64,000 nt of DNA from a virus. The stretch's first letter is position 1; the number at the start of each line of letters is the position of its first letter. A program made the position numbers and the translations under genes. Positions 11,093-37,794 of the stretch are shown in pieces. The notes under the pieces are model-generated. The model did not search any database. It was not told the DNA's origin and worked only from the letters and a program-made list of their open reading frames with translations. The DNA is taken from the IMG/VR virus record IMGVR_UViG_3300030397_000629. One strand, written 5' to 3'.

Positions 11093-12235
11093 ATGGCAGT
11101 ATCATTGACAATACAACCGCCTCAAGTAAACGGTCTTGATGAGTGCCTAAACTTTGGCCTTTTCTTAGATGATCCGGGCAGCGGAACAATAAAAAAGTCA
11201 GTTGCATACAGGCTGACGGGTGACGGGCAAGAACTAACTGAAATTGAGTTCATGCCGTACACAGGGCAAACAGAAGAGTTTGAGGCTGCCGGTGAGCTAA
11301 GAAAAATTGTATCAACAACTATACCAACACCCGGCTCAAATGTAATTGTGCAAGATTCAAATATATTGAAAGTGTACTCTCTTGCATACGGTGAGCGAAC
11401 ACTTGACACTGAAACTTGCGACGTTGTAACCAACCTGAGCAGCAACTCACCAAGCTTTAGAGTTATAAACTCGCGTTTGCAGTATCACAACTACATTGAT
11501 TTTTCAGCTAACTCACCCGTTGTTTTATCCGACAAACCTGAGCGTTTGCCTATGTCATTTGATCAAGATGACTGGCTTTATATTTACGGCAACGGCAACA
11601 TTGATGTCAGAGTTACGGTCTATGACTCAGCAGGCAATTTGCTGCTAAACCAAATAGAGACAGTAAGCGCAGGGCAGCAGGTTTTTATTTTTCCTGTTGG
11701 CGGCAATAACTCATTTTGGGCAATGCCAACAAATGCGTCATATTATGATATATCTGTTGGCTCAGGCGCAATGCGTGTTTACGCAGTCAGATACATAATG
11801 GGCGCAGGTTGCACAGAGGAAAATGAATACACGGATATAATTTTTCAAGAACCGGCAGGCGGTTACTCTTCTTTGAGATTTGCAACACCTGTTACATTCT
11901 CACAGGTTGAAAGCAGTATCTTTGAGCAGAGACGAGCAAACTGCCCAACAAGCGGGCCTGAGCTTGCACAAAATTGGTATAACACAAGGTATGATATAAA
12001 AGCAGCTAAACTTTGGACGCTGCAAGGCAGTATACCTTGGGCGGTAAATATTGACAGATACCTTGATGCTTTTGTGCAGGCACCTCACCACTACATAAAA
12101 GCAAGGGTGAGAGCATCAGGTCAGACCGTTTACCATAAAGTCAACATACAAAACGGAAGTTATCAAACGCTAAACGGCACACAAGATGTGCAAGTTAATG
12201 CAAGTTTTAGAAGTCATCACGGAATGAAGGCATGA
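11093..12235 (+). CDS. tail-tip (distal tail-like) structural protein
   Basis: 380 aa beta-rich, directly after TMP; assignment by synteny. Confidence 0.6.
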   Translation: MAVSLTIQPPQVNGLDECLNFGLFLDDPGSGTIKKSVAYRLTGDGQELTEIEFMPYTGQTEEFEAAGELRKIVSTTIPTPGSNVIVQDSNILKVYSLAYGERTLDTETCDVVTNLSSNSPSFRVINSRLQYHNYIDFSANSPVVLSDKPERLPMSFDQDDWLYIYGNGNIDVRVTVYDSAGNLLLNQIETVSAGQQVFIFPVGGNNSFWAMPTNASYYDISVGSGAMRVYAVRYIMGAGCTEENEYTDIIFQEPAGGYSSLRFATPVTFSQVESSIFEQRRANCPTSGPELAQNWYNTRYDIKAAKLWTLQGSIPWAVNIDRYLDAFVQAPHHYIKARVRASGQTVYHKVNIQNGSYQTLNGTQDVQVNASFRSHHGMKA

Positions 12236-17615: not shown

Positions 17616-18881
17616 ATGGAAGAAATTGCAGATTTTATAAAAGTCCAAAGTAACAGAGTTGTTGCAGAGGTCAATGAAATTACAATATCAATAACAGGGC
17701 ACATTGGCTGGGATTTCGACGGCGGGCAACTCATTTCATTCCTTAGAAACTACACGGGCGAGAATGACAAAATTATTTTTGACATTTTCAGCTTTGGCGG
17801 CTCAGCTATGCACGCACTTGCTGTTTATGATTTTATCAAAATAAACGGCATTAAAGCTGACGCCAATATTTTTGGCATGTGTGCCAGTGCTGCAAGCATC
17901 ATCTCATCAGCTTGTGAAAAGGTCGGCATTGGCTCAAATTCTTTCATGCTTATACACTCACCTTATGAGGCATCAACAGGCGATGAGTCAGAGGCAAGCC
18001 AACAGGTAAAAGAGAGACTCATTGATATTTACAAGTCAAAGACGGGCTTGGGAAAGCGGGCGCTTGTCAAGCTTATGGATGAGGGTGACGGCGGCGCAAT
18101 CATAGGCGCAAAAGAGGCGGTGAGGCTTGGCTTTGCTGATATGGTACTCAAAGAGCAGAAAAGTGTTGCTGCAAGGGCGTTTGAGTTTAACACTCAAAAA
18201 CCGGCAGCCTTTGATATTTCAAATTTAAATAATTCAAAAATGAGTAAATCAAAATTCAACTTTGTGCAGTGGGCAAAAGATACTTTTGGCGTCTCTGGCA
18301 CACAGGAAGAAATTGAGGCTGCACTCTTGGAAATAGACTTGAGCAGCAACAACGGTGACACCGGCAACAACGGTGACAACAAAAACGGCGGTGACAAGAA
18401 TACCGGGCAAGGTGTTAATGCAAAAACAGATGAGCCGGGCAACAACGGTGACAACAAAAATAGCGGCGGCGATGACGCTTTAAAAGCTATCCTTGCCAAG
18501 CTTGATGTTGTTGAAAAAACATCTGAAAGGGTTGACGGTCTTGAGGCCAAATTGAACACCCTTAGTGAGAACATGGTAAGAATGACTGAGACGCTTGAGG
18601 GCGTTGCCAATAACAAGCAGGAAGAGAAGAAAGAACAGCAGAGTATTTTTGATCAAAACCTTGCAGCCATTAACGCCAAGCTCGCCAATATCAAAACAAT
18701 GGGCAGTGGCACCGTTGTTGGCAATAAGACCGGAAACACCGGGCAGGGCAATGCAATTGTCAACCTCAACACCGGGCAGCAAGAAAAGAAGAAAGCCGGG
18801 CAAGTTGTTGCATCAGATACGCTTGAGCAAGCCGTTTGGTCTCAGATCGGCGTTGATGTAAGTGCCATGAAAAGCAACTAA
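17616..18881 (+). CDS. ClpP-like prohead protease fused to scaffold-like C-terminal region
   Basis: DIFSFGGS, GMCASAASII and FMLIHSP catalytic motifs; low-complexity GNNGDNKN repeats and coiled coil; precedes capsid gene. Confidence 0.9.
   Translation: MEEIADFIKVQSNRVVAEVNEITISITGHIGWDFDGGQLISFLRNYTGENDKIIFDIFSFGGSAMHALAVYDFIKINGIKADANIFGMCASAASIISSACEKVGIGSNSFMLIHSPYEASTGDESEASQQVKERLIDIYKSKTGLGKRALVKLMDEGDGGAIIGAKEAVRLGFADMVLKEQKSVAARAFEFNTQKPAAFDISNLNNSKMSKSKFNFVQWAKDTFGVSGTQEEIEAALLEIDLSSNNGDTGNNGDNKNGGDKNTGQGVNAKTDEPGNNGDNKNSGGDDALKAILAKLDVVEKTSERVDGLEAKLNTLSENMVRMTETLEGVANNKQEEKKEQQSIFDQNLAAINAKLANIKTMGSGTVVGNKTGNTGQGNAIVNLNTGQQEKKKAGQVVASDTLEQAVWSQIGVDVSAMKSN
18363..18460 (+). repeat. 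23-bp direct repeat in the scaffold linker
   Basis: GGCAACAACGGTGACAACAAAAA at 18363 and 18438. Confidence 0.85.
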
Positions 18882-23473: not shown

Positions 23474-23803
23474 ATGATTGCAAACACATTTAAAAAGTTT
23501 TTAGGCCAAAAGGCATCAGTCAATCTTGCTGACCTTGTATTTGGCGTTGAGGATTTAAACAACCCTGACCTTGAGACTTTCAGGCTTGATACATGCAAGG
23601 CTTGCCCTTTTATTGATCCTGACGGCTTGATTTGCAAAAAGTGCGGGTGCTTTATGGAAGCAAAGACAAAGCTCTTTACTTTCTCAAACCATGAGCAAGG
23701 CGGTGCAATTGAGTTCGTTTGCTGCCCTGAGAGCAAATGGAATGATGCACACGTTTTAATGATAAACCAATTATTGAGAGAGCAGCGCAAAGTGCTGCCC
23801 TGA
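23474..23803 (+). CDS. Cys-rich DUF6171-like protein
   Basis: RLDTCKACP...CKKCGCFMEAKTKL...CPESKW. Confidence 0.7.
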   Translation: MIANTFKKFLGQKASVNLADLVFGVEDLNNPDLETFRLDTCKACPFIDPDGLICKKCGCFMEAKTKLFTFSNHEQGGAIEFVCCPESKWNDAHVLMINQLLREQRKVLP

Positions 23804-23835
23804 GTTATATTTTTCAATATTTAAAATTTAAGCAA

Positions 23836-24285
23836 ATGGCTTTTTATCCAAGCGCCAACCAAGGCGACTCAACAACCGGGCCAAACCCTGCGTCAATTAT
23901 GCAAGCAATTCAGGGCGGTCACAACTGCTGCGGCGGCAAAAATTCTGCTGCTGCAACAGGAATACAAGAGAACACGCTTCCTGACGTAACCGGGTACGCA
24001 ACTGCTGCTGTTGACCTCACTGCCAACGATGTAACCGGCATTGTTGTCAATCCTGACGGCAATGGCGACCAAACTTACACCTTTGCAACACCTGCTGACG
24101 ATGCCGACAAGCTAAAAGCGGGAATACTTGAGGCAATGGCTGCTCTTAAGTTTATTGAGGCTGAGGGTGCGGGCGTTGTAATTACCGGCGCTGATAACGC
24201 TGCTGTCACTACAATCACAATTGCTGTTGGCGTGCCGGTCAACCTTGTGAATGGTGCAGGTGACCCGGCTTTCTCTGCTGTGTAA
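23836..24285 (+). CDS. hypothetical virion protein (decoration-like)
   Basis: 149 aa Ala/Gly/Thr-rich beta pattern in structural operon. Confidence 0.5.
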   Translation: MAFYPSANQGDSTTGPNPASIMQAIQGGHNCCGGKNSAAATGIQENTLPDVTGYATAAVDLTANDVTGIVVNPDGNGDQTYTFATPADDADKLKAGILEAMAALKFIEAEGAGVVITGADNAAVTTITIAVGVPVNLVNGAGDPAFSAV

Positions 24286-24330
24286 GCTTTTGACATTACT
24301 GTATATTTTTAACGGTTAAAATAAGGTGCG

Positions 24331-25320
24331 TTGCCTTTATCGCTGGATTGCAAAAACGGTGAGGTTATAAGTTTTCCCTGTTGTGGCGGTAGCGGCACAG
24401 GTAGCTTTGTTTTCACTGGCATTGAGGTCACAGATGATTCAGGCAACGCAACTTTTTTGCATGCACCTTATGAGGTGCAGGTTACAAGCACGGGTGTTTT
24501 TATATCCGACTACAAACGAAATAACTTTTTTATACCTCTTTCTGAGGTTGCTTTTGACAACATTGATGACCTAATTGAGTACGTTACTGAGTGCCGCAAT
24601 TGCAACTGCCAAGCTGACCCTGCTGACGGCGAAGATTCAAACGGCGGTGCAATTTGCTTTTACAGGCAGACCTTTCAAGATGTTAACACAAATGTTATTG
24701 AGGTAACTGCCAACCAAGGCGAAATGCCACAAGGTGACAAAACAAGAGTTTACTTTAATGGCAGGTTGCTCAGAAACGGCGTTGACTATCAAATACAGGG
24801 TGCCTTTATAACTTTCAATTTTGATGTTGTCAGGTCTAACATTGAGGTTATATTTCTGACACCTTGCTCACTTGCTGCTCAAGAGTTTTGTCAGTTCTTT
24901 GTTGGCGTAAACACAAGCACTGTAACTGTAACCGTAAACGGCGGGATGCCTCAAGATAAATCTGAGGTTGAGGTTTATTTCAATGGGCGGCTGATGACTG
25001 AGGGGCAAGATTTTAATTTCAGCGGCAATGATATTGTTTTCTTGTTTGACGTTGTTGACTCAACAATTTCTGTTATTTGGCTCGACCGTCAGCAAAGCAT
25101 GTTTGATGCCAAGTACATTCAGACTGAGCTTTCACATAGCTCTCAAACACTCACTATAACTGCCAACGGTGGCAGCATGCCTGACAATAGTAATCAGGTG
25201 CTTGTAATGCACAACGGCAGGCTCATGATTGAAAATCTTGACTATTCACTTTCTGGCAATGTAATAACTTTCAATTTCACTATAAATGAGGCAAGAATAC
25301 AAGTTATATTATTTGTTTAG
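24331..25320 (+). CDS. virion structural protein with three beta-sandwich repeats
   Basis: TTG start; V(Y/M)(F/H)NGRL..G/NxD(Y/F).. repeated three times; no signal peptide. Confidence 0.65.
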   Translation: MPLSLDCKNGEVISFPCCGGSGTGSFVFTGIEVTDDSGNATFLHAPYEVQVTSTGVFISDYKRNNFFIPLSEVAFDNIDDLIEYVTECRNCNCQADPADGEDSNGGAICFYRQTFQDVNTNVIEVTANQGEMPQGDKTRVYFNGRLLRNGVDYQIQGAFITFNFDVVRSNIEVIFLTPCSLAAQEFCQFFVGVNTSTVTVTVNGGMPQDKSEVEVYFNGRLMTEGQDFNFSGNDIVFLFDVVDSTISVIWLDRQQSMFDAKYIQTELSHSSQTLTITANGGSMPDNSNQVLVMHNGRLMIENLDYSLSGNVITFNFTINEARIQVILFV

Positions 25321-28300
25321 GGCGGCAATTGTCTTGCTTGGCTTGACGTGCTTGCCTCTGAGCGCATTTTCTCAGCTTAATGACCCTAATGAAGGCCCAA
25401 GCACCCGCACGCGCCTCTATGAGATTGAGAAAGCCGACACAGCAGGCATTTTGATTTGGTCAAACATGTTAAAAAATGCTCAATGGGATTCTCAAAACTA
25501 TGTCATCATTTGGGCTGAGGACACAATTAGTCACAGATTGCACACCCGTCTTGAGACAGTCAACGAGAATCAAAGCAATACAAAGTTTTTAACGGTTAAT
25601 CAAAACGGCGTTGTTGAGTGGCGAAGCGGCGCAGGCGGCGGCACCATGAACACATGGTTAATTGCAGGCGACACAGGCAGCCCTGAGATTGTTGCAGACG
25701 GTGAAACTGCAACCATTGCAGGCGGTACAAATATCTCAACCGTTGTGAGTCCTACAAGGACACTCACAGTGAATTGGTCAGCGGTTTTAAATGACCTTAC
25801 TGACGTAAACACAACATCTTTAACGGTTAATGATGTGCTCACTTGGAACGGCTCGCAATGGGTCAATCAAGCAGGCGGCGGCGGCTTGGCTGACGGCAAC
25901 GGCATCTTTGATGTGAACAATGACGGTAATTTTGTGCCGGGTGACTTTCAGGCAAACGTTGATACTGTGTTGCAGTTTGGAGACATGGACAACAACAGCG
26001 GGCGCAAAGTATTAGAAATAAATAATGTTGGCACGGGCGGCGTTGGTGAGATTTTAATGTATGATACTGACCCGCTCATTGACATGGGTTTTTCATTTGG
26101 CAACCTTGGTCAAAACAGGATTTATTTAGGCAACCTGATAAACTCAGACCCGTCAATATCCATTGATGATCAAACCCCCAACTCACCGGGTGACGGCTCA
26201 ATTGTATTGGATGCCGCAACAATTATGTTTTCGGACGGGCCAAACGTTAGGCTCATAATGCCGTCAGAAGCAGAGGGCACACCGTCACAAAACCCGGCAG
26301 ATACAATGCTCATTGTTTTTCCCGGCTCTTTGCCGCCTCACCAAGGTTACATGTTTACCTTTGACCAATTAGCTGAGTCAATTGGTGACATTACAGGCAA
26401 GCCGGGCAGTGATGTTGTCATTAGGTCAACGTTTGAGTCAAGCGTCTCACCGGCACCTGCAACCGGCGCTTTCAGGCTCAACTCAGCGCCCGCATCTGCA
26501 AACTCAATATACATTGACAAGACAAGTGAGAACAGTGTGAGCATCGCATCAGTTATGAGCAGCTTGTTGGTTGGTGACAAAATTTACATTCAGGATGAGT
26601 TTACCAAGCTTACAGCATACCTTTATGAGGTGACAAGCTCACCCTCAGATAATGGCTCTTATATCTCAATTCCGGTCTCAAATATATCAAGCAACGGCGG
26701 CACAATGACTGCCTCAAACGTTTACGGGTTTTTAATAATAAGCCAAGGTGCAACTGCTGCTCAAACATTAAGTTATGCGGGCCTTGGTGACCTTAGCATT
26801 TCAGGCGGCAACTCTGTTGACCTGAGTGACCTGCTTGACAATACTGACTCACAAACCCTGAGCTTTGTGAGTCCAAACATCAGTATTTCAGGCGGCAACT
26901 CTGTTGATATATCAGGCATCAATACTGACAACCAAGCGCTTTCATGGATTGAGGGCACAAGCACCTTGAGCATTACGGGCGGTAACAGTGTTGTTTTATC
27001 AGGATTTATGAGCAGCTTTTTCTTTGGTGATGAGTCAGCAACAATTGAGGTGAGTGACGGCAACACAATCAGAGTTGAGGGCGGCATTGCTGCACTTGCT
27101 GATATATCAGGCGGCTCAGTCATTGTTGATGTTTGGCCCGCAAAGCAGACGGTTGACGCAAACCCTGACCTTGCAGGCTGGCTTTTATATCAAGATGCAT
27201 CAACTTTTGAGGTTAACCGGGTAACTATCAATAGCCTGCCTGTTGGAAAGTTTGACTCATTTGATTGGGGTGACGGCTCACTCATTACAACAATAACAGA
27301 CGGCGAAGCAATAAGAGTGACGGGCGGCACCAATATCACAACAACATTGTCATCAAATGACATCACAGTTGATTGGTCGGCAGTATTAAACGACCTCAGT
27401 GACGTGAGTGCAGGCTCACCAAGTAACAATGATGTTTTAACTTGGAACGGCTCAGCATGGGTGCCTCAGTCAGCAGGCTCAGGCTCTTTTAATAATTTCA
27501 CTATTGATGCAGACACAGGCACACCTGAGCTTGTCAGTGACGGCGAAACGGTAACATACACAGGCGGCACAGGCATCAGCACAACCGTATCAGCAACAAG
27601 AGTGATAACAATAAACCTTGACGCTGTTATTTCTGACTTGAATGACGTTTCAAACACAGCACCAACCTCAGGGCAGGTGCTCAAGTGGAATGGCTCAGCA
27701 TGGGTGCCTGACACTGACCTTGTTGGCGGCGGCGGCGGCATTGCCTCATTTAATGTTGCAGGCTCAAGCGGGCCTGCTGAGACAGTGACAGACGGCGAAA
27801 CAATAACCATTGCACAAGGCACAGGCATCACAACTGTTACCTCATCGCCAAACACAGTGACAGTGAGCTTGAGCGCAGCAATCAGTGACCTCACTGACGT
27901 AAATGTGACAGCACCCTCACAAGGTGAGGCTCTTATCTTTGACGGTTCAGAATGGATAAACCAAACCCAAAGAGACTCACAAACACTTGTTTACAGCGGT
28001 GCGGGTGTTCTGCAAATCTCAAACGGCAACAGCGTCAACATGAATGACCTGTTAGATAACACCGACAACCAAATACTAAGCTTTGCAGACCCAAATTTGA
28101 GCATTTCAGGCGGCAACAGCGTTGATATATCAGGCATCAACACTGACAACCAAACTCTCAGCTTTGCCAACCCAAACCTCAGCATTTCAGGCGGCAACAG
28201 CGTTGACCTCACCGGCTTGAATACTGACAACCAAATGATTGAGAAATTTGTCATTGAGAGTGACACCTTGAAAATATCAATTGAGCGAGATGCGCAGCCT

Positions 28301-31300
28301 GACCAATTCGTTGTATTAACACCTTACCTTGACAATACTGACAATCAACAGGCTGACCTTTTTGACCTCAGTGTAAACACATTGAGGCTGAGCTTGGAAA
28401 ATGACGGCGTTGGGCCTTATACTGTTGATTTAAGCCAATTCCTTGATAATACTGATAGTCAGCAGCTTAGCTTTACCTTTCCAAACCTTAGCATTACGGG
28501 CGGCAATTCTGTTGATTTATCCATATTGCAGGACGGCAACGGCATTATTTCTGCTCTGCCTGTTGGTGATGTAACCATTGACGCAACTGACAACACATTC
28601 AGGATTGACAATCTCAAAGAGGTCAGGCTTTCAGACAGCGACAGCAAGGCAGGTCTGTTTATTTGGGAGACCGGCACAACTAATGTGCAGGATTTTGCAG
28701 GCATGGCATCAGATTACTCAATTACTCATGCAGGCTTATTTGTCAGAGGAAACACGGCAAGCAGTGTATTGACTCATTATGATATTACAGGAGTTGTGCG
28801 TGACATCAATGACGCCAATGATTATGTTTCTTATCAGGTATACAAAGATTCTTTCAACATCAATGTTTTTTCTCAGCAAGAGCTTGACGCAGCTTTTAAG
28901 ATAAACCTCAATGAGGCTTTTATTAGTGGCAACAACGAGGCTAAAATGCTTTCAATATCTCTTGCAGACGAGAACGCTGACGGCTTGCGGTTTTACGACA
29001 AGTACAACTTTCCAAATGCAACACCCTCAGCAGCGGCAGGTGACACAAGTGTTATTATATGGCAGGGCGGCACTCAGCAGTTTATTGATATTGATGCAAT
29101 AAGAGGTGAGTCAGGTCTCACCGGGTTGACGGCTCAGGGTGACAAATACATTGACCTTTCACTTGATGGCAGTGACCTCACGGCGTCATTCCTTTATGAC
29201 CTTTCACCTTTAAAAGATACGATTTTTCAAGCCGGGCACGGGTTTACAACAGGGCAATTGCCTGCTGCTGTCTATATTGACGGCAGCGGCAACTTAGTTG
29301 CATCTGACAACATTCTTGAGCAGCGATTGCATGACTTGCATGTTGTTGAGGTTTTGCACACTGACACCATTGTTGTGCAAACAGAGGGGTTTTATCAAAA
29401 AGACGGGCATGGTTACCTTGTTGGATATGACTATTTTTTGACATCAACACCTCTTGTATATGACACGCTTGTTGCAGAGGGACAACTCAATGATTGGGTT
29501 TTCACCGTCAAGGATGCAAATAGGCTGATATTAAAGGCAACAAGACCTTATGACCCCAATGCTGAGGTCAGCGGCTCAGTGAATTGGGGTGACGGCTCAA
29601 ATTATGTGCCTATCTCTGCAAGTGATACACTTGAATTTTTAGGCGGTGAGGGCATTGCAACCTCTTTGAATATTGCCAATAATGAAATGACAATATCACT
29701 TGACTATCTTAATGACCCAAGTGACGCCTCACCTGACTCTCTTGATATTGTCAGCTTTTATGACATCTCAGCAGGTAGTTACAAACATACTGAGATAAGA
29801 AACCTTGGCGTTGGCTCAAGCAGCGGCGGCGGCGGCGGCTCAATAAGCATGGAAAGCCGCTGGTTGACAACTATTTTGCCGCCGCCCGGCACAAGGCGAG
29901 TAAACGGAAATAATTTAACTCAAAGCGCAATAACTGAGATTTACATTGACAAGACAAGTTTAAACAATGTGCAGATTGGTACAATACTTTTGAGCGCAGT
30001 TGCAGGTGATCAATTTTACATACAAGAAAAGGCTGATGACGGCAGCGCAATTTTATTTGAACTAACGGCTGACCCATCAGATAATGTTGCTTATGTGACG
30101 TATACCGGCACAGTTGTTGACATACTTGGTGACCTTGGAAACAACCAAGATGTTGTGATGATATTGTTTTATTCAGGTGGCATGAATGATTGGTCAATTG
30201 CTGCTGATGTTGGCGGCAGCCAAGTTGTTGCAGACGGTGAAACTGTGACTATATTGGGCGGCACAGGATTTGAAACAAATTTGTCAGCAGGTAGAAACGT
30301 AACGGTTAACGCAAAATTTGAGGACTTTGCAACGGCACCTGCTTTGACAAATGACCATGAATTTATCTTAGTCAATTCAACAACGGGCATTGAGAACAGA
30401 ATAACGGTTGCAAACGTTGAGAGCAGTTTGTCAATACCTATTGGCAACCTTTCTGATGTAAACATTACCTCACCCTCAAACGGTCAGGTTTTAACGTACA
30501 ACGGCAGTGCTTGGGTCAATCAGGCAGCAGCAGGCGGCGGCACAATGTCCTCATTTTTTATTGACTCAGAAGATAACACACCTGAGGAAATAACTGACGG
30601 CGAAACAATTGATATTGTTGGCGGCACGGGAATTGGCACAACTCAAACAGGTAGCATAATAAGCGTTGTACCAAGGTTTGAAGAGTTTTCGACGGGCGGC
30701 ACAATCTCAGCACTTGACTTTGTTTTTATTGAGACCGGCGCAAACTTAGAAAGAAGGAAAACGGCAGCAGATGTGCAAGAATGGACTGAGGACTTTCTTG
30801 GCACATCAACACTTGTTGCAGGCACCAATATGACAATAACATACAATGATGTTGCTGGTACAATAACTTTTGACGCAGCAGGCGGCGGCGGCACAATGTC
30901 ATCGTTTGAGTTTGGTGACGGCACCGGAACATCAACGGTGAGTGACGGGCAAACAATCAGCGTAACGGGCGGCTATGGTTTAGTTGCTCAGTTATCAGGC
31001 TCAAACCCTTATGAGGTTGACCTTGACCTTGATTTCTTTGAACTTAACACCACAAGCTCAATAACAGCCTCAAGCAATTTCATATTATGGAATGACGGCG
31101 GGCCTGAGCAGAGAATAACAAGCGCAAATGTTGAAACTTGGGTTGAGGGAATAATTGATACAAGAACACCTGCTGTGACAACTCAGACGAGCGGCACCAT
31201 TGACTTGCAAAGCCTGCAAAGCTTTGCAATCATTGTAAACATGGCGTCATCAGGCGGCTCAATAACAATGGTGTTAAACAACCCAAATGCTCAAGCCGGG

Positions 31301-31486
31301 TTTTACACAATACTCTTTATAAATGCAAATGACGGTGACTCTGTAAATTGGCCCAACAACGTTTATGACGAGGGTGTTAATTTGCTTGGTACAGATGCGC
31401 TGAGCAACGGCAGGCGGCTTTTTACATTCCTTTACACAGGTAGCACAGATGACAGATATTTTACTCACTCAGAAATAAGCAACTAA
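25286..31486 (+). CDS. giant tail-fibre/adhesin-like protein with N-terminal Sec signal peptide
   Basis: 2066 aa; signal ...IVLLGLTCLPLSAFS/Q; repeats LNDLTDV...NGQVL.WNGS.W, I.DGET.T..GGTGI and ISGGNSVD...NTDNQ; fibre-type C-terminal domain (VNWP...). Confidence 0.8.
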   Translation: MRQEYKLYYLFRAAIVLLGLTCLPLSAFSQLNDPNEGPSTRTRLYEIEKADTAGILIWSNMLKNAQWDSQNYVIIWAEDTISHRLHTRLETVNENQSNTKFLTVNQNGVVEWRSGAGGGTMNTWLIAGDTGSPEIVADGETATIAGGTNISTVVSPTRTLTVNWSAVLNDLTDVNTTSLTVNDVLTWNGSQWVNQAGGGGLADGNGIFDVNNDGNFVPGDFQANVDTVLQFGDMDNNSGRKVLEINNVGTGGVGEILMYDTDPLIDMGFSFGNLGQNRIYLGNLINSDPSISIDDQTPNSPGDGSIVLDAATIMFSDGPNVRLIMPSEAEGTPSQNPADTMLIVFPGSLPPHQGYMFTFDQLAESIGDITGKPGSDVVIRSTFESSVSPAPATGAFRLNSAPASANSIYIDKTSENSVSIASVMSSLLVGDKIYIQDEFTKLTAYLYEVTSSPSDNGSYISIPVSNISSNGGTMTASNVYGFLIISQGATAAQTLSYAGLGDLSISGGNSVDLSDLLDNTDSQTLSFVSPNISISGGNSVDISGINTDNQALSWIEGTSTLSITGGNSVVLSGFMSSFFFGDESATIEVSDGNTIRVEGGIAALADISGGSVIVDVWPAKQTVDANPDLAGWLLYQDASTFEVNRVTINSLPVGKFDSFDWGDGSLITTITDGEAIRVTGGTNITTTLSSNDITVDWSAVLNDLSDVSAGSPSNNDVLTWNGSAWVPQSAGSGSFNNFTIDADTGTPELVSDGETVTYTGGTGISTTVSATRVITINLDAVISDLNDVSNTAPTSGQVLKWNGSAWVPDTDLVGGGGGIASFNVAGSSGPAETVTDGETITIAQGTGITTVTSSPNTVTVSLSAAISDLTDVNVTAPSQGEALIFDGSEWINQTQRDSQTLVYSGAGVLQISNGNSVNMNDLLDNTDNQILSFADPNLSISGGNSVDISGINTDNQTLSFANPNLSISGGNSVDLTGLNTDNQMIEKFVIESDTLKISIERDAQPDQFVVLTPYLDNTDNQQADLFDLSVNTLRLSLENDGVGPYTVDLSQFLDNTDSQQLSFTFPNLSITGGNSVDLSILQDGNGIISALPVGDVTIDATDNTFRIDNLKEVRLSDSDSKAGLFIWETGTTNVQDFAGMASDYSITHAGLFVRGNTASSVLTHYDITGVVRDINDANDYVSYQVYKDSFNINVFSQQELDAAFKINLNEAFISGNNEAKMLSISLADENADGLRFYDKYNFPNATPSAAAGDTSVIIWQGGTQQFIDIDAIRGESGLTGLTAQGDKYIDLSLDGSDLTASFLYDLSPLKDTIFQAGHGFTTGQLPAAVYIDGSGNLVASDNILEQRLHDLHVVEVLHTDTIVVQTEGFYQKDGHGYLVGYDYFLTSTPLVYDTLVAEGQLNDWVFTVKDANRLILKATRPYDPNAEVSGSVNWGDGSNYVPISASDTLEFLGGEGIATSLNIANNEMTISLDYLNDPSDASPDSLDIVSFYDISAGSYKHTEIRNLGVGSSSGGGGGSISMESRWLTTILPPPGTRRVNGNNLTQSAITEIYIDKTSLNNVQIGTILLSAVAGDQFYIQEKADDGSAILFELTADPSDNVAYVTYTGTVVDILGDLGNNQDVVMILFYSGGMNDWSIAADVGGSQVVADGETVTILGGTGFETNLSAGRNVTVNAKFEDFATAPALTNDHEFILVNSTTGIENRITVANVESSLSIPIGNLSDVNITSPSNGQVLTYNGSAWVNQAAAGGGTMSSFFIDSEDNTPEEITDGETIDIVGGTGIGTTQTGSIISVVPRFEEFSTGGTISALDFVFIETGANLERRKTAADVQEWTEDFLGTSTLVAGTNMTITYNDVAGTITFDAAGGGGTMSSFEFGDGTGTSTVSDGQTISVTGGYGLVAQLSGSNPYEVDLDLDFFELNTTSSITASSNFILWNDGGPEQRITSANVETWVEGIIDTRTPAVTTQTSGTIDLQSLQSFAIIVNMASSGGSITMVLNNPNAQAGFYTILFINANDGDSVNWPNNVYDEGVNLLGTDALSNGRRLFTFLYTGSTDDRYFTHSEISN

Positions 31487-32160
31487 TGAGGACTTTAACC
31501 GTACATATAATTATGATGTTTTTAACGGTTAACTTGTTTGCACAGGGCGCTCACGGCATGCTCTCAGATAGGACTAGATTTCTTGGCGGTGGCGGCGTGC
31601 CAACAACAATAACCATAAAGATAAACGACGGTGACGATGATTGCGAACAAGATTCACCTGACGGCTCAACAAGTTTTACCTCATCAGATTTAGAAAAGAC
31701 CTATGACGGAAATGAGCAAATAATTGGCCTTAGATTTAACGGCATAACAGTGCCGCAAGGCGCAACGATAACTGAGGCGTTTGTGCAATTCACCTCAAGG
31801 TTTAATGACACCAATGCCTGCACATTGCGTGTTGTGATGGAATTTGCAGATAATGCAGCGCCAATGACGAGCGGAAATGCGCCATCTGATAGGACTTGGA
31901 CAACTGCATTTACAGACTGGATTCCACCCTCATGGACGGGCGGCTCAGACCAAAAGGATGACGACACAAAAACACCTAACTTTGCAAGCGTCATGCAGAC
32001 TGTTGTGAATAGGTCAAATTGGGCATCAGGCAACTCAATGTGCGTTTTTGTAATAGCCGAGCCTTTTAATTCAGGTGTTAATCAAAGAAGAAACTCACGC
32101 TCTTTTAATACATCAGGCGGCTCAAAAGCGCCTGAGCTTATTATAACTTATTTACAATAA
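31486..32160 (+). CDS. secreted beta-sandwich (CBM/DNRLRE-like) protein
   Basis: signal ...MMFLTVNLFA/Q; GLRFNGITVPQGATITEAFVQFT and APELIITY motifs seen in secreted bacterial proteins. Confidence 0.7.
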   Translation: MRTLTVHIIMMFLTVNLFAQGAHGMLSDRTRFLGGGGVPTTITIKINDGDDDCEQDSPDGSTSFTSSDLEKTYDGNEQIIGLRFNGITVPQGATITEAFVQFTSRFNDTNACTLRVVMEFADNAAPMTSGNAPSDRTWTTAFTDWIPPSWTGGSDQKDDDTKTPNFASVMQTVVNRSNWASGNSMCVFVIAEPFNSGVNQRRNSRSFNTSGGSKAPELIITYLQ

Positions 32161-32161
32161 A

Positions 32162-32845
32162 ATGAAAATGAAACAAATTAAACAGGTAACATTTTTGTTG
32201 TTCTTTCTGTTGACGGTTTTGTTGCAGGCTCAACCGCCTACTTATATTTATGAGACAACATCAGAGGCAGATTTATTTGATATTAATTTCATTGACAACA
32301 GAGCATACGGCAACCCTAAACCGGCAAAGCTTTACAATGACCTTGACTCTGCTGAGGCAATAAATTATTACCTCAGAGAGAAAGAGAGGGCGCAAGACTA
32401 TTCTGCCTCACTTGCTGTTGAGTCAATTGTTACTGAGCGACAAATTAAAGACGTTGAAAAGGAATTGAGGCAGGTATTTGACATCAACAAAAAAGATTAT
32501 TTAGATTGGGCAAATAACCGCAATAGCAGACGATTGAACGGGCGTTTTAGATACAGAATACAAGGCGTTGAAAGTATCAGTATATTCATTGACAGCTTAA
32601 GTATTTACAGGCGCTCTGATTCACTCAATATAGGCAAAATGACTTGGTATTCTCCAAGGCGTGTTGAGGTAATTTTATTTCAAACAAATGACACTCTTTT
32701 CTTGAATAAGTCACTGACCAATAATTTTTGGTTTGGAAAAGACCAAAACGAGGATTTACACATTTTAAAGCAGAGAGACACGCCCGACGATGACGACACA
32801 CAGGGCAACTTATTTTTTGATCCAAATGTATTTATGCGATTATGA
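32162..32845 (+). CDS. secreted hypothetical protein
   Basis: signal ...FLLFFLLTVLLQA/Q; central helical segment then beta domain. Confidence 0.75.
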   Translation: MKMKQIKQVTFLLFFLLTVLLQAQPPTYIYETTSEADLFDINFIDNRAYGNPKPAKLYNDLDSAEAINYYLREKERAQDYSASLAVESIVTERQIKDVEKELRQVFDINKKDYLDWANNRNSRRLNGRFRYRIQGVESISIFIDSLSIYRRSDSLNIGKMTWYSPRRVEVILFQTNDTLFLNKSLTNNFWFGKDQNEDLHILKQRDTPDDDDTQGNLFFDPNVFMRL

Positions 32846-33189
32846 AAAAGCTGCTTGTATTATTATTTATCATAATCCAAATTGGGGCATGCCACAATGA
32901 TAACTTAACGGTTAATGATTACAGCGGCGTTTGGTTCGGTGTTGATCCCTTTGGCAGGTATTTTGAATTTGACAACGGCAATTACTTTGAGGTCTTGCCA
33001 ACGGGCGGCGATGCTTTTGGCATGTTGATTGGCGGCAACTCAGGCACATACAAAGAGATTGAGCCGGGCCTTATTGAGATAACCGGATTTTACCAAACAC
33101 CAAGTCAATGGAAACTTATTCAAACTGAGCCAAGGTTTATAATAAAGCACACAGTGTCAAGCACGCAATTTGCAAGGATTCAACAGTAA
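32842..33189 (+). CDS. lipoprotein
   Basis: MKKLLVLLFIIIQIGA/C lipobox; YSGVW lipocalin-like start. Confidence 0.75.
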   Translation: MKKLLVLLFIIIQIGACHNDNLTVNDYSGVWFGVDPFGRYFEFDNGNYFEVLPTGGDAFGMLIGGNSGTYKEIEPGLIEITGFYQTPSQWKLIQTEPRFIIKHTVSSTQFARIQQ

Positions 33190-33211
33190 TTTTTTAATAA
33201 AATCTTTTACG

Positions 33212-33937
33212 ATGTTCAAACAGGTAACAAGCAAGTTATTAACACACTTATCAACAATGTTGATAATTCTTTTTTGCATCCAATTACACGCACAACAACC
33301 TGCTCAGCCGGTTGAGGTATTGCCTGAAAAGTACAGAGTTGAAATGACTGCCGTTAATGATTCCCTTTACAACTTATTTGTTGTTGATGAAGAGGTGCCG
33401 CAACAAGCAGGCTCTTTGACCGGCAAGGCTTTCAACGGACTCAATGCACAGCAGACAGAATTGATTTTGTACAGACTTTACAATGAGCAGCTTGACCGTG
33501 AGGCAAAAGCCAAGTTTGACCTGCTCACGCAAATGCAGGCAAGCACAAGACTGAGCAACGGTTTAGATATGATCAAGGCAAGCCGCTTTGATGAGTACAG
33601 GGCTGCTTTAAAAGGGCGCTTTGTTGGCTCTTGGCTTTTGTCATACGGTACAGGTGAGGGCGCTGAGGCGGTGCTCACTGTCTCTGATGATAAAGGAAAG
33701 TTAACGGTTAAAGATGAGAGCGGGCAAAAGATTGGCTCTTTGTCAATCAAGTCAACCCTTTCTTTAACAGTTAAGTTTTTTGACTCAGATGTTGTTGACC
33801 TGCCTGTTGAGCTTTCAGGCAAGTCAATTGACCTTGTTGGCACTGACGTCAAAATTATGTTTTACGCAAGCTTTGTTGACAACGTTGCATACATCATGAA
33901 ACAACAGCCCAATGAAGCGGCTGAAAATAAAGAGTAA
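33212..33937 (+). CDS. secreted hypothetical protein
   Basis: ATG at 33212; signal ...MLIILFCIQLHA/Q; helical segment then FVGSW beta domain. Confidence 0.75.
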   Translation: MFKQVTSKLLTHLSTMLIILFCIQLHAQQPAQPVEVLPEKYRVEMTAVNDSLYNLFVVDEEVPQQAGSLTGKAFNGLNAQQTELILYRLYNEQLDREAKAKFDLLTQMQASTRLSNGLDMIKASRFDEYRAALKGRFVGSWLLSYGTGEGAEAVLTVSDDKGKLTVKDESGQKIGSLSIKSTLSLTVKFFDSDVVDLPVELSGKSIDLVGTDVKIMFYASFVDNVAYIMKQQPNEAAENKE

Positions 33938-36091
33938 ATGAAAAGGTTTTTATTCCTGTTTTTGGTTTTTCATACAACTTTGGTTTTTTCTCAGTCGGGC
34001 GAAAGTGGCGCACTGATTGTGCAGGGTGCCGGGCTGAGAAACTTTTTTATCAATGCTGATGCCGGGCCAATACTCCAAATAAACGGCGGTGATACATTGC
34101 AGGCTCAGGGCGGCACAGGTGTCACAACTGAGGTTATTGGCTCAGTATTACAGATTGACTTTTCAGCCGCTCTTGATGACCTGACTGACGTGAGTGCAGG
34201 CTCACCAATTGCAGGGCAGGTGCTCAAGTGGAATGGCTCAGCATGGGTGCCTGATACTGACAACACAGGTGCGGGCGGCATGGCAAGCTTTAACCTTGCA
34301 GGCACAAGCGGCTCACCTCAAGTTGTAAATGACGGTGAAACGGTATTGATTGAGGCGGGCACAGGAATAACAACCACGGGTGCGGCAACAGACAAGGTGA
34401 CAATTGACCTGAGTGCCGCACTCAACCTGCTCACTGATGTAAATGCGCCAACACCCTCAAATGGTCAGGTTTTAAAATATGACGGTGCAGAATGGATTGC
34501 AGGCACAGACGAGACCGGCACGGATGCACAAACCCTGAGCATTAGCTCAACAACAAGGGTGTTATCAATAACGGGCGGCAACTCTGTTGACATGAGCGAA
34601 AGCATTATGGAAGAGGTTGCAGCTTTTGCAACCGCTGGCACTGGCATTGCAATTGCTCATGATGACGGCGGCAACACACTGACATTCTCGCTTGACGCAG
34701 TGCTTAATGACTTAAATGACGTCAATGACGGCAGCCCTGCAAACAATCAGGTTTTGAAATGGGATGCAGGCAACGGTTGGGCTGAGTGGTCAATTGATCA
34801 GGCAGGAATTACAAATATAAATATTGACTCAGATGATAATGACCCTTTTGGCTACATCAACGGTCAAGAGTTTGGATTTCTTGGCGGCACAGGCATAACA
34901 ACAACACACACTAACAGCGTTGTTACATTCAACTTGACGGCAAGCCTTGATGACTTGACTGACGTGAGCATTACCTCACCCTCAAACGGTCAGGTTTTAA
35001 CGTACAACGGAAGTGCTTGGGTCAACTCAGGCTCAGGCGGTCTGTCATGGACAGCAGCAGGCGACACAGGCAGCCAAACGATTGAGAACGGCAACACGCT
35101 CAACTTTATAGGCGGCACAGGAATGAGCACCGCCGCAACTGCAACAGATAACCTGACAATCAATTTAAATGCAGGCTTAAACGATTTAAACAGCGTGACA
35201 GTTTCCTCACCTGCAAGTCAAGACATATTGCTGCATAACGGCTCAATATGGCAGAATACAGAACTATTTTTCAGGGTTGCAGATGATGCAGCAACTTTTT
35301 TCAAGCTCAGCAACGGCTTTACACTGCCCTTGCTTGGCGGTGACGGCATCAGCACTGAGACAGACGGCTCAACATATTTCTCAGTAATACTTGACGCCAA
35401 CATTGGTGACCTCAACAACGTCAGTAATAATGCAGCTATCAACGGCGCTTACCTGACGTACAGCACAACGGCGGGTGAATGGCAGCCAACTATTGTGCCG
35501 CCTATGACCTCATTCGATATTACAGGCGACTCAGGCACGCAACAAACAGTCACCAACGGTGAGCTTGTAAGCTTTAGAGGTGGAACAAATACAGGGATTT
35601 CAACAACAATCTCAAGCGGCAACTTTCTTGATATTAACCTTAATATTGCAAATATATTCCTTGACAATGCAATTGCTGACCTTGACAGACTTGTTTATTA
35701 TGACATCTCTGCATCAGGTCACAGGACTATTGAGAAAAACGCACTTATCAGCGGCGGGTGTCCTACTCATTACCAATACATTTTAGGATGGAAGCAAACA
35801 GTAGGTCTTACGTCAACGCTTTCAAGTGACGAGTATTGGGTTGTTCCGCCTGAGCTTGGCGGCAGATGTGTTGATGCTATAACAGCAAGAACAGGCTCAG
35901 GCTCAGCAACGGTGACTGTCAAAGTAAACAGCGCAAGCCAAGACACAGTGAGCGCAACAAGCTCAGGCGCAACAGTAAATACAGATTTTACAATACCTAC
36001 TCACGGCAGGATTCAAGCGCACGTAATAACAAACACGAATGCAACCGGCTTATCAATTACGCTGACAATCAAATGCGATTGCAGCGGGTAA
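33938..36091 (+). CDS. second tail-fibre-like protein with Sec signal peptide
   Basis: 717 aa; signal MKRFLFLFLVFHTTLVFS/Q; same LDDLTDV..GQVL.WNG and GDSG..QTV..GE repeats as the 2066-aa protein. Confidence 0.8.
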   Translation: MKRFLFLFLVFHTTLVFSQSGESGALIVQGAGLRNFFINADAGPILQINGGDTLQAQGGTGVTTEVIGSVLQIDFSAALDDLTDVSAGSPIAGQVLKWNGSAWVPDTDNTGAGGMASFNLAGTSGSPQVVNDGETVLIEAGTGITTTGAATDKVTIDLSAALNLLTDVNAPTPSNGQVLKYDGAEWIAGTDETGTDAQTLSISSTTRVLSITGGNSVDMSESIMEEVAAFATAGTGIAIAHDDGGNTLTFSLDAVLNDLNDVNDGSPANNQVLKWDAGNGWAEWSIDQAGITNINIDSDDNDPFGYINGQEFGFLGGTGITTTHTNSVVTFNLTASLDDLTDVSITSPSNGQVLTYNGSAWVNSGSGGLSWTAAGDTGSQTIENGNTLNFIGGTGMSTAATATDNLTINLNAGLNDLNSVTVSSPASQDILLHNGSIWQNTELFFRVADDAATFFKLSNGFTLPLLGGDGISTETDGSTYFSVILDANIGDLNNVSNNAAINGAYLTYSTTAGEWQPTIVPPMTSFDITGDSGTQQTVTNGELVSFRGGTNTGISTTISSGNFLDINLNIANIFLDNAIADLDRLVYYDISASGHRTIEKNALISGGCPTHYQYILGWKQTVGLTSTLSSDEYWVVPPELGGRCVDAITARTGSGSATVTVKVNSASQDTVSATSSGATVNTDFTIPTHGRIQAHVITNTNATGLSITLTIKCDCSG

Positions 36092-36127
36092 CCCTATTGA
36101 TTAATTAATTATAATCCAATATGAAAC

Positions 36128-36376
36128 ATGAACAGCACCAAAGAAACAAAAGCTCTTGCAGGCATGCGGGACGCAGTGCAGCTTTACCTTTACCCGGTAT
36201 TATTGGCAATCGTTGGCTTTTTCCTTGTCAATCAATTTGATGACATCGAAAGGCTAAAAGATGATTTACATGACGCTGAAATGAAAATCACGCGACAAGA
36301 GACAGAGTTGAGAATAATGAAGGAGACACAAGAGCAAACTGTGAAAGAATTAATTGAAATACAAAAATGTAACTAA
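36128..36376 (+). CDS. holin/spanin-like small membrane protein
   Basis: one TM helix plus C-terminal coiled coil at end of late operon. Confidence 0.5.
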   Translation: MNSTKETKALAGMRDAVQLYLYPVLLAIVGFFLVNQFDDIERLKDDLHDAEMKITRQETELRIMKETQEQTVKELIEIQKCN

Positions 36377-36422
36377 GCACTCATTTATAAACTGAAATTT
36401 GAATAATTAAAAATTAACCGTT

Positions 36423-36878
36423 ATGAAACAAACACTCATCAAAGTTGCTGCGCTCACAGCACTTTGCGTTTTTATGACAACTGCATTGCCTGTTGACTCA
36501 TTAGCTCAGTCAACAGACTCACTGACAATTGATTCTCTTATAAGTGTAATTGAAAAGATTGACCTTGAGAAAGGTGCGGCAGATTTATTTGACGCTGAAA
36601 ACCCTGACCTGATAAACTGGTTTAACCTCATTCATGGTTTTCTTGTTGTCCTGTTTGGGTTTTTGGCCTCAGCATTTGGGCTGAAAAAGTGGGCAGGTCA
36701 GAATTTTGTTTTGATTGTGGTGGCATTTGGCCTTGTCGCAATTGGTGCCTTTGTTGCTCTTGGGTTTGGCAAGGCTTTGCCTCTTGTAATTACCCTGTTT
36801 GCAACACTTGGGCTGTTTGATACTATATTCAAACCAAAGACACCGCTCAATACACTGGCAAAGAAAATTGAAAAATAA
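36423..36878 (+). CDS. holin-like membrane protein with cleavable signal peptide
   Basis: signal ...PVDSLA/Q, then three hydrophobic helices and basic C-terminus. Confidence 0.5.
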   Translation: MKQTLIKVAALTALCVFMTTALPVDSLAQSTDSLTIDSLISVIEKIDLEKGAADLFDAENPDLINWFNLIHGFLVVLFGFLASAFGLKKWAGQNFVLIVVAFGLVAIGAFVALGFGKALPLVITLFATLGLFDTIFKPKTPLNTLAKKIEK

Positions 36879-36929
36879 TGGTTTTGCGAGTGTTTCGCTC
36901 GCTCACCGTTGTTACCTGTTGGCGGCATC

Positions 36930-37316
36930 TTAATTGGTGCCGTCTTTTTTTATTGATGCCTCAAGCAACTCAATCCTTTTATCTTGAGTGCTGAGCTTAT
37001 TCTCAAGCAATTCAATTTGCTTTTCAATCGGCAACTCTGTTTGCAGCAGGCTTGCCGGTTTTGATACTGCAAAATGCTCATTTATTATGTCATAAACATT
37101 ATTGTTACCAAAGTGTTGCAAAAGCTTTTGTGCAATTTCATCTGTTGGTGTTGATGCGCCTCTTTTGATATTATAAAACAAGGTAGGTGTTTGACTGTCG
37201 CCAATTCTCTCAGCAATCTCTTTCATCGTCGAAACATCAAAGGCGGTTAATATTGAGTCAATTGCCTGCAAAAAGGCATTTCTTTTTTGCTCTTTTTCTT
37301 CATTTCTTTTATTCAT
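36930..37316 (-). CDS. XRE-family HTH repressor (CI-like)
   Basis: STMKEIAERIG...FYNIKRGASTPT HTH, C-terminal coiled coil, divergently transcribed. Confidence 0.75.
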   Translation of the reverse strand: MNKRNEEKEQKRNAFLQAIDSILTAFDVSTMKEIAERIGDSQTPTLFYNIKRGASTPTDEIAQKLLQHFGNNNVYDIINEHFAVSKPASLLQTELPIEKQIELLENKLSTQDKRIELLEASIKKDGTN

Positions 37317-37374
37317 AACAAGCTTGTTATTTGTAATTATTACAAATTTAGCTTAATATTGCAATAATCACAAA
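37315..37374. promoter_or_regulatory. divergent genetic-switch region
   Basis: minus promoter TAAATTTG (37343-37350) with TTTG 20 nt upstream; plus promoter TTG(37331)...TAATATTG; palindromes ATAACA-AGCT-TGTTAT (37315-37330) and ATTTGTAAT-T-ATTACAAAT (37329-37347). Confidence 0.75.
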
Positions 37375-37392
37375 CCTTTTAAATTTTAGGCA

Positions 37393-37794
37393 ATGGATAA
37401 TGTTGTTATTAAAATAGGCTCAATAGAAGAGGATTCAATTGGATGCATGAATGCATACAAGAATATTGAACAAAAATACGAGCTTGAAAGCAAGCTTATA
37501 AAATTCATTAACGACAAAGGCGAGTTTGAGCCAAATGTCAAAAGTTGTTTTCAAAGTGAGGAAAGTGTAACAGTGATACTTGACCTTGAGGACGGGAATG
37601 AAAACGGTCAAGGCTTTACTTTAGACAGTCACACAATATTGCCTGCTCTTGCTTTCTTGGGAATTGATCACATTGAGCAAACAGCGGATGCAATTTCTTA
37701 TGCGCCTTTTATAATTGGGGCATGTTGCATTGAGTGCTTGATTCCGTCAAAGTCAATGATTGAGAGAATTAAGTTTCATGAAAACAGCGTTTAA
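37393..37794 (+). CDS. hypothetical protein
   Basis: 133-aa first rightward ORF. Confidence 0.7.
   Translation: MDNVVIKIGSIEEDSIGCMNAYKNIEQKYELESKLIKFINDKGEFEPNVKSCFQSEESVTVILDLEDGNENGQGFTLDSHTILPALAFLGIDHIEQTADAISYAPFIIGACCIECLIPSKSMIERIKFHENSV

What the first reader, a model, noticed from the sequence alone, without database searches (positions are those of the whole stretch)
25286..36878. Exported tail-fibre module: fibre-like proteins and their neighbours all carry signal peptides
Seen: in the slot where a siphovirus keeps tail fibres, six consecutive genes start with export signals. They are the 2066-aa protein (AFS/Q), the 224-aa (LFA/Q), the 227-aa (LQA/Q), a lipoprotein (IGA/C), the 241-aa (LHA/Q) and the 717-aa (VFS/Q); the holin-like gene at 36423 also has SLA/Q. 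The two giants are otherwise typical fibre proteins (L.DL.DV...GQVL.WNG..W repeats, fibre-type C-termini) and show no recognisable T9SS CTD. Established: phage fibres normally fold in the cytoplasm and lack signal peptides; Gln at +1 is the Bacteroidota Q-rule (pyroglutamate formed in the periplasm). Inference: (a) fibres are Sec-exported, folded or modified in the periplasm with dedicated helpers and join the virion only at or after lysis, (b) they form a phage-encoded cell-surface appendage (lysogenic conversion, receptor masking), or (c) the virion acquires them from the envelope. Any of these would be an unusual morphogenesis or secretion system.
Basis: partly seen in the sequence, partly recalled or inferred. 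Interest (0 to 1): 0.92.

Follow-up and report, generated by a model that had tools for sequence, protein, structure and literature searches.

The report
Phage tail fibres carrying export signals
An uncultured aquatic phage of Bacteroidota puts its host's secretion signal on two giant fibre proteins and five neighbouring proteins, which suggests that this gear leaves the cytoplasm before it meets the virus particle.

Summary
Seven of the eight genes between 25286 and 36878 begin with a Bacteroidota-type signal peptide: six have Gln at +1 and one has a lipobox. Only one other real gene in the window does (7/8 against 1/68, Fisher p = 3e-8).

The signals are conserved. In nine related phage lineages from metagenomes, the giant fibre starts with a signal peptide plus Gln. 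A conserved mature N-terminal motif (P.TR, then a hydrophobic strand ending S/A-D/N) follows within about ten residues of that Gln.

The upstream 329-aa gene belongs to a family that exists both without a signal and with one.

The block has no room for internal promoters. It ends at a strong terminator at 36921-36944, and I found no integrase, so a moron or lysogenic-conversion reading is unlikely. No T9SS C-terminal domain was detected.

In two cultured Cellulophaga phages (phi10:1 gp091-094, phi18:3 gp085-087), unrelated tail-end proteins with the same kind of signal are annotated as virion proteins from MS/MS.

Best reading (about 0.5): these are real virion fibres that are Sec-exported, mature in the periplasm and join particles at lysis.

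This scan has noted the same phenomenon on other Bacteroidota phage DNA at least seven times. I found no paper describing it.

The parts
24331..25320 (+). 329-aa Cys-rich protein with three beta-sandwich repeats and no signal peptide. Its gene is always next to the giant fibre gene, so it is a candidate adaptor.
   Evidence: The family search finds two subtypes. Type A has no signal and starts at residue 1-2. Type B has a signal peptide plus Gln. The gene lies directly upstream of the giant in 8 of the 9 lineages; in L023 the signal-bearing fibre sits further downstream. The AF2 model is poor (pLDDT 50).
25286..31486 (+). 2066-aa giant fibre protein. The signal peptide is residues 1-29 (nt 25286-25372) with Gln30 at +1. 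The mature chain has no Cys.
   Evidence: PHROGs tail-fibre families phrog_9729 and phrog_677. Five fibre motifs. Conserved mature N-terminal motif (A5).
31486..32160 (+). 224-aa exported CBM96-like beta-sandwich protein. Signal peptide residues 1-19, Gln20 at +1.
   Evidence: Atlas features and structure. Homologues carry the acidic motif followed by SSDLE. The closest homologue, P0123 (46% identical), also has a signal peptide plus Gln. The orthologue in L001 is 33% identical. Pfam CBM96 itself was not reached.
32162..32845 (+). 227-aa exported orphan protein. Signal peptide residues 1-23, Gln24 at +1.
   Evidence: No family match and a poor Atlas model. The D[ST][AILVMT] motif occurs 4 times against 0.8 expected.
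32842..33189 (+). 115-aa lipoprotein with lipobox IGA|C17.
   Evidence: No family match. Only one acidic residue follows the Cys, so it has no clear surface-export signal (inference).
33212..33937 (+). 241-aa exported orphan protein. Signal peptide residues 1-27, Gln28 at +1.
   Evidence: No family match and a poor Atlas model. Not similar to the 227-aa protein by BLASTP.
33938..36091 (+). 717-aa second fibre protein. Signal peptide residues 1-18, Gln19 at +1. The fibre repeats begin right after the cleavage site.
   Evidence: PHROGs tail-fibre families. It is 45% identical to the giant over 235 aa and shares 59-67-nt blocks that are 93-94% identical.
36128..36376 (+). [quoted passage not shown] It is a weak Rz-like spanin candidate and has no cleavable signal.
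   Evidence: PHROG phrog_739 at 1e-4 and Pfam SieB at 0.0016, both below cut-off. Homologue in L001.
36423..36878 (+). 151-aa membrane protein with signal peptide residues 1-28, Gln29 at +1, then 3 TM segments. 'Holin-like' by position only.
   Evidence: The L001 orthologue is 40% identical and also has a signal peptide. No holin family match.
36921..36944 (+). Intrinsic-terminator-like hairpin that closes the late operon.
   Evidence: It is the best terminator-like site in 23500-37600: 9 pairs, 6 of them G-C, followed by a T-run.

Best explanation
The block is the distal host-recognition module of a tailed phage of an aquatic Bacteroidota host; I found no integrase, so the phage is probably virulent.

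The module encodes two fibre proteins, a sugar-binding module, a lipoprotein, two small orphans and a membrane protein. They are made late, from the same transcript as the head genes. Their N-terminal signals send them through the host Sec translocon. Signal peptidase I (peptidase II for the lipoprotein) removes the signal, and the exposed Gln is cyclised as in host proteins. The fibres therefore fold and trimerise in the periplasm, while heads and tails are built in the cytoplasm.

When the inner membrane is breached at lysis the two pools mix. The fibres then dock on finished particles through the conserved segment that starts within about ten residues of the cleavage site.

Shown here:
- the signals themselves;
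- their clustering and their conservation across lineages;
- late-operon placement;
- absence of a T9SS tail;
- virion MS/MS annotation of analogous signal-bearing proteins in two cultured Cellulophaga phages.

Inferred:
- actual export and cleavage;
- periplasmic folding;
- docking at lysis;
- the docking partner.
For: Signals are present and clustered.

Nine lineages keep signal plus Gln on the giant or fibre gene, followed by a conserved mature motif. The lineages are the window, L001/L008/L011, L002/L013, L018, L019, L020, L021, L022 and L023.

Within the L001 lineage the signal sequences diverge but keep hydrophobicity and the cleavage site.

The block is co-directional and tightly packed, and ends at a terminator. 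Its G+C content matches the neighbouring genes.

The fibre repeats match bona fide phage fibre families. More distant relatives (L006, L007) have a signal-less protein, taken to be the fibre, at the same position.

The 329-aa neighbour family occurs with and without a signal. This fits proteins that act only after the compartments mix.

In cultured phage phi10:1, gp091-095 all start with a signal plus Gln and gp091-094 are MS/MS structural proteins. The same holds for phi18:3 gp085-087, while its other virion proteins lack signals.

The Q-rule is specific to Bacteroidetes signal-peptidase-I substrates (PMC5837995).
Against: There is no direct evidence that the window's own proteins are in virions. 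They share no significant similarity with the Cellulophaga proteins.

Virion MS/MS preparations can carry envelope debris.

Export of a 2066-aa trimeric fibre into a narrow periplasm is physically awkward.

Bacterial chromosomes encode signal-bearing fibre-like proteins as cell-surface proteins (L009), so a non-virion role has precedent.

The tail tip (994-aa hub candidate and 380-aa neighbour) might suffice for adsorption.

SignalP was not run.
Confidence: 0.5

Rival explanations
1. The proteins are exported but never join the virion. They act in or on the envelope of the infected cell or after release. Possible roles are masking or binding surface glycans so that progeny are not lost on debris, excluding other phages, or acting as free adhesins or decoys.
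For: Export separates them from cytoplasmic assembly. The set includes a stand-alone CBM96-like binder, a lipoprotein and orphans, which are not typical virion parts. Signal-bearing fibre-like proteins exist in bacterial chromosomes next to T9SS cargo (L009). Known phage envelope proteins lie near fibre genes, for example lambda Lom (PMC12309495). Q-rule proteins of unknown function occur in P. gingivalis prophages (PMC10367356).
Against: The block is late, co-transcribed with head genes and has no promoter of its own. No integrase was found. The mature N-terminal motif is conserved while the rest of the fibre varies, which is the pattern of a virion attachment domain. Analogous proteins are in virion MS/MS sets of cultured phages. 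No other long fibre is encoded in the window.
Confidence: 0.25
2. The leaders are not used for full export of the virion pool. Either most molecules fold in the cytoplasm and join particles there, with only a side fraction exported. Or the leader tethers the fibre to the inner membrane until lysis, in the manner of signal-anchor-release endolysins.
For: A large, fast-folding trimer may escape Sec. Orthologues of the 329-aa neighbour work with or without a signal. Some phage assembly steps are known to be membrane-associated (my own knowledge of T4).
Against: The canonical -3/-1 sites and invariant Gln at +1 in more than 20 independent leaders point to selection for cleavage by signal peptidase I and cyclisation in the periplasm. 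The leaders are strongly hydrophobic and not Gly/Ala-rich like signal-anchor-release domains.
Confidence: 0.15
3. The signals are an annotation artefact: the true starts lie downstream, or the resemblance is due to chance.
For: SignalP was not run. Bacteroidota lack strong ribosome-binding sites that would fix the starts.
Against: The clustering gives p = 3e-8. Gene junctions overlap or abut. The leaders are conserved in orthologues that are 21-35% identical.
Confidence: 0.03

Closest known systems
Signal-bearing tail-end structural proteins of Cellulophaga phages phi10:1 (gp091-gp095, NC_021802) and phi18:3 (gp085-gp087, NC_021794)
   Same: They are consecutive late genes next to the lysis genes. 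All start with a Bacteroidota-type signal peptide and Gln at +1, and they include fibre and polysaccharide-acting proteins. Most are annotated as virion proteins from MS/MS.
   Different: They show no significant sequence similarity to the window's proteins. They are much shorter (317-785 aa against 2066 aa). The signals are not remarked on in the records, and I found no paper that discusses them.
Bacteroidetes Q-rule substrates of signal peptidase I (Bochtler et al. 2018, PMC5837995), and the five Q-rule genes of unknown function in P. gingivalis prophages (Matrishin et al. 2023, PMC10367356)
   Same: They have the same leader architecture with Gln at +1. The prophage case shows that phages of this phylum use the host pathway.
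   Different: The prophage genes are of unknown function and were read as host-modifying. Here the leaders sit on fibre proteins of the late structural operon of a phage with no integrase found.
T4 long tail fibres (gp34-37), which are assembled on a separate pathway and added last to finished particles (my own knowledge)
   Same: Fibres are built independently and attached as the final step. The N-terminal end docks and the distal part varies.
   Different: T4 fibres have no signal peptide, and the whole pathway is cytoplasmic.
Phage envelope proteins encoded near fibre genes: lambda Lom and Bor, T5 Llp, and Cor (Lom per PMC12309495; the others from my own knowledge)
   Same: They are signal-peptide or lipoprotein genes inside or beside tail-fibre regions.
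   Different: They are small, non-fibrous proteins, often expressed from their own promoters or in lysogens, and they are not virion parts.
PblA and PblB of Streptococcus mitis phage SM1 (my own knowledge)
   Same: They are fibre-like phage proteins that end up on the cell surface.
   Different: They have no signal peptide. They reach the surface after lysis and rebinding, and the host is Gram-positive.

Membership tests
Sec/SPI signal peptide obeying the Bacteroidetes Q-rule | Positively charged n-region, an uncharged hydrophobic core of at least 9 residues, and small residues at -3 and -1 | tested here: met
   The home-made rule is met by six proteins in the block and by the 168-aa protein at 61612. 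SignalP was not available.
Sec/SPI signal peptide obeying the Bacteroidetes Q-rule | Gln at +1 | tested here: met
   All six SPI-type leaders in the block have Gln at +1, and so do the leaders of the orthologues. The rule is defined in PMC5837995.
Sec/SPI signal peptide obeying the Bacteroidetes Q-rule | Actual cleavage and pyroglutamate formation | not testable with these tools
   This needs N-terminal proteomics.
SPII lipoprotein | Lipobox followed by an invariant Cys after a hydrophobic core | tested here: met
   The 115-aa protein has IGA|C17.
T9SS cargo | C-terminal sorting domain (Por_Secre_tail PF18962, or type B) | tested here: not met
   Pfam gives no hit on the whole proteins at E <= 0.01, nor on the C-terminal 160 aa at E <= 1. 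NCBIfam gives none.
Phage tail fibre | Sequence membership of phage fibre families and the repetitive fibre motif | tested here: met
   phrog_9729 and phrog_677. Five motif copies in each giant. Homologues are mostly phage fibres.
Phage tail fibre | Presence in the virion and a role in adsorption | not testable with these tools
   There is only evidence by analogy, from the Cellulophaga phage MS/MS annotation.
Moron or lysogenic-conversion gene (Lom/Bor type) | Own promoter and terminator, deviant base composition, and carriage by a temperate phage | tested here: not met
   Gene junctions overlap or abut. The only strong terminator follows the block. G+C is 0.40-0.48, like the neighbouring genes. 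No integrase was found among the ORFs tested. The promoter scan covers sigma-70 sites only, so that part is weak.
CBM96 (224-aa protein) | Match to Pfam PF24517, or to the fold and its acidic motif followed by SSDLE | tested here: inconclusive
   Pfam gives no hit. Atlas feature and structure neighbours are CBM96-like, and homologues carry the motif.
Holin (151-aa protein) | Small membrane protein with 1-4 TM segments in a lysis cassette next to an endolysin | tested here: inconclusive
   Three TM segments follow a cleavable-looking leader. No holin family was hit and no endolysin was identified in the window.

The most novel reading that the evidence does not exclude
A group of Bacteroidota phages runs a periplasmic branch of virion morphogenesis. 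Fibres and other host-recognition proteins are Sec-exported, receive a pyroglutamate N-terminus, fold outside the cytoplasm and are attached to cytoplasm-built particles only when lysis joins the two compartments. The conserved segment that starts within about ten residues of the cleavage site is the docking element.
Probability: 0.45. Interest if true: 0.85.

Novelty: new variant of a known kind. Interest (0 to 1): 0.7.

Why it matters
Textbook assembly of tailed phages is wholly cytoplasmic. Fibres that pass through the host secretion pathway would add a new step to morphogenesis and tie fibre attachment to lysis.

It would also explain why many Bacteroidota phage 'structural' genes look like secreted bacterial proteins. 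That matters for annotation, for host prediction (Gln at +1 marks the host phylum) and for expressing such fibres or depolymerases in the laboratory.

The question is directly testable in the cultured Cellulophaga phages.

Tried and rejected
- **Complex prediction.** I tested the 329-aa neighbour against residues 30-90 of the giant. The result was no verdict (score 0.00, partner fold uncertain), so it is not evidence either way.
- **AF2 model of the 329-aa protein.** The model was poor (pLDDT 50), so I ran no fold search.
- **Export for O-glycosylation.** The Bacteroidota motif D[ST][AILVMT] is not enriched in the two giants (11 seen against 14 expected, and 2 against 5).
- **Export for disulfide formation.** The mature giant has no Cys.
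- **SGNH esterase domain in the 717-aa protein.** The PDB sequence hits (PatB, DUF459, E = 0.006) lie in an ordinary fibre repeat, so I treat them as chance.
- **Searches of GenBank phages.** The block as DNA, the 717-aa protein and the 492-aa protein gave no match. The giant hit only repeat motifs of cyanophage gp9-like proteins.
- **Similarity between the 227-aa and 241-aa proteins**, claimed in another note. BLASTP did not detect it.
- **Literature searches** for signal-bearing tail fibres found no description. The Holmfeldt 2013 paper was not found in the searchable library.
Full report
**What the window is.**
The window is 64 kb of a 65.6-kb metagenomic contig from an aquatic sample. It is a tailed phage. 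These genes are recognisable:
- a tape measure protein at 8052-11078 (Pfam PhageMin_Tail);
- a ClpP-type prohead protease at 17616-18881;
- a large terminase at 56771-58150;
- replication genes.

No integrase was found among the ORFs tested. No cultured relative exists in GenBank phages.

**The observation.**
From 24331 to 36878 all genes run on the + strand and overlap or abut. The N-termini read from the sequence are classical Bacteroidota leaders:

| Protein | Predicted cleavage site |
|---|---|
| 2066 aa | AFS\|Q30 |
| 224 aa | LFA\|Q20 |
| 227 aa | LQA\|Q24 |
| 115 aa | lipobox IGA\|C17 |
| 241 aa (ATG at 33212) | LHA\|Q28 |
| 717 aa | VFS\|Q19 |
| 151 aa | SLA\|Q29, then three TM segments |

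A strict rule of my own picks exactly these seven. It requires a net-positive n-region, an uncharged hydrophobic core of at least 9 residues, small residues at -3/-1, and Gln at +1 or a lipobox. Among real genes of 100 aa or more, it picks only one other, the 168-aa gene at 61612. That is 7/8 against 1/68, p = 3e-8. About 3% of short spurious ORFs also pass, so the rule is not perfect. SignalP could not be run.

**The two giants are fibre proteins.**
- PHROGs places both in tail-fibre families.
- Each carries five copies of the L.DL.DV..GQVL.WNG motif.
- They share blocks that are 45% identical at protein level and 93-94% identical over 59-67 nt.
- Most homologues of the 717-aa protein are ordinary phage fibres without a leader.
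- Neither giant has a T9SS C-terminal domain or an S74 chaperone domain.

**Conservation.**
Syntenic relatives were found through the fibre, through the 492-aa portal-like gene and through the 329-aa gene. They are L001/L008/L011, L002/L013, L018, L019, L020, L021, L022 and L023. With the window this makes nine lineages, whose orthologous proteins are 21-48% identical.

In every lineage the giant or fibre gene starts with a leader plus Gln. A conserved mature segment follows within about ten residues of that Gln: P.TR, then a hydrophobic strand ending in S/A-D/N. T40, R41, A50 and D79 are invariant in alignment A5. The rest of the protein varies freely. A conserved N-terminus with a variable distal part is what an attachment domain of a fibre looks like (inference).

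Within the L001 lineage the leaders differ in sequence but keep hydrophobicity and the cleavage site. More distant relatives (L006, L007) have a leaderless protein, taken to be the fibre, at the same position.

**The upstream 329-aa gene.**
An exhaustive profile search found 193 relatives. Those that match from the family's N-terminal domain fall into two forms:
- One form has no leader and starts at residue 1-2 with C..GE...CCGG. There are about 25 representatives, including the window's gene.
- The other has a leader plus Gln, followed by C.EGDTL.NDP.C.FC.P. There are about 10 representatives, one with a lipobox and one fused to a 1899-aa protein.

L002, L020 and L021 carry the exported form next to exported giants. 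So one protein family works from either side of the inner membrane. That is easiest to understand if it acts after the compartments mix (inference).

**The small proteins.**
- The 224-aa protein is a stand-alone CBM96-like beta-sandwich. Its closest homologue (46% identical) and its L001 orthologue also have leaders.
- The 227-aa and 241-aa proteins and the lipoprotein match nothing.
- The 227-aa and 241-aa proteins are not detectably alike.
- Calling them chaperones is a guess.

**Operon context.**
There is no room for promoters inside the block. The strongest terminator-like hairpin of the region lies at 36921-36944, just after the 151-aa gene. Base composition matches the neighbouring genes. 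This is a late structural transcript, not a moron.

**Evidence from cultured phages.**
Earlier notes of this scan pointed to two Cellulophaga phages, and I checked the records myself.
- In phi10:1 (NC_021802), gp091-gp095 all begin with a leader plus Gln. gp091-094 are annotated as structural from MS/MS.
- In phi18:3 (NC_021794), gp085-087 do the same, while the portal and the other MS/MS-detected virion proteins have no leader.
- In both phages these genes lie next to the lysis genes.
- They are not homologous to the window's proteins, so this supports the explanation by analogy only.

**Published context.**
[quoted passage not shown] Matrishin et al. (PMC10367356) note five Q-rule genes of unknown function in P. 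gingivalis prophages. I found no paper that describes signal peptides on tail fibres.

**Verdict.**

The most likely mechanism (about 0.5) is Sec export, maturation in the periplasm and attachment to particles at lysis. The main rival (about 0.25) is an exported, non-virion envelope or glycan-binding function. A smaller share (about 0.15) goes to leaders that tether the fibre or that export only part of the pool.

Tests for glycosylation-motif enrichment and for Cys content gave no reason for export. A complex prediction gave no verdict.

The same phenomenon has been noted by this scan on other Bacteroidota phage DNA at least seven times. This window adds four things:
- the largest example (a 2066-aa fibre);
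- a nine-lineage family;
- the conserved post-cleavage motif;
- the with-or-without-leader family next door.

Noticed in passing
window 61612-62118: A 168-aa protein with a leader (LIA|Q20) sits in the block between the terminase and the tape measure, just before a 189-aa gene. The distant relative L005 has two lipoprotein genes next to the 189-aa homologue.
   Followed up: partly
window 23474-23803 and 23836-24285: A 109-aa protein with CxxC...CxxCxC cysteines (weak DUF6171 hit) and a 149-aa protein with a CCG motif are conserved in the late operon of all relatives, just upstream of the 329-aa gene. Their function is unknown.
   Followed up: no
window 36423-36878 and 32162-32845: The Bacteroidota O-glycosylation motif D[ST][AILVMT] is over-represented in the 151-aa protein (4 seen, 0.5 expected) and the 227-aa protein (4 seen, 0.8 expected), but not in the fibres.
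   Followed up: partly
L001 13057-14517; L008 5412-6872: The L001 lineage carries a 486-aa Peptidase_S8 without a leader, between the spanin-like and the holin-like genes. The window has no counterpart.
   Followed up: no
L023 13261-14943: A related phage contig carries a PAS histidine kinase and a response regulator between its fibre genes and an Amidase_3 endolysin. Its leader-bearing fibre lies after the endolysin.
   Followed up: no
L007 9589-10248: In a distant relative with a leaderless fibre candidate, the next gene is a lipoprotein with a GDS(M)TSG motif typical of SGNH esterases.
   Followed up: no
window 12232-15216: The 994-aa tail-hub candidate has 21 cysteines and matches no Pfam or PHROG family.
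   Followed up: no
P0268 (1899 aa): One representative fuses a leader and the exported form of the 329-aa family's N-terminal domain to a very long protein. This suggests that the domain can head a fibre directly.
   Followed up: no
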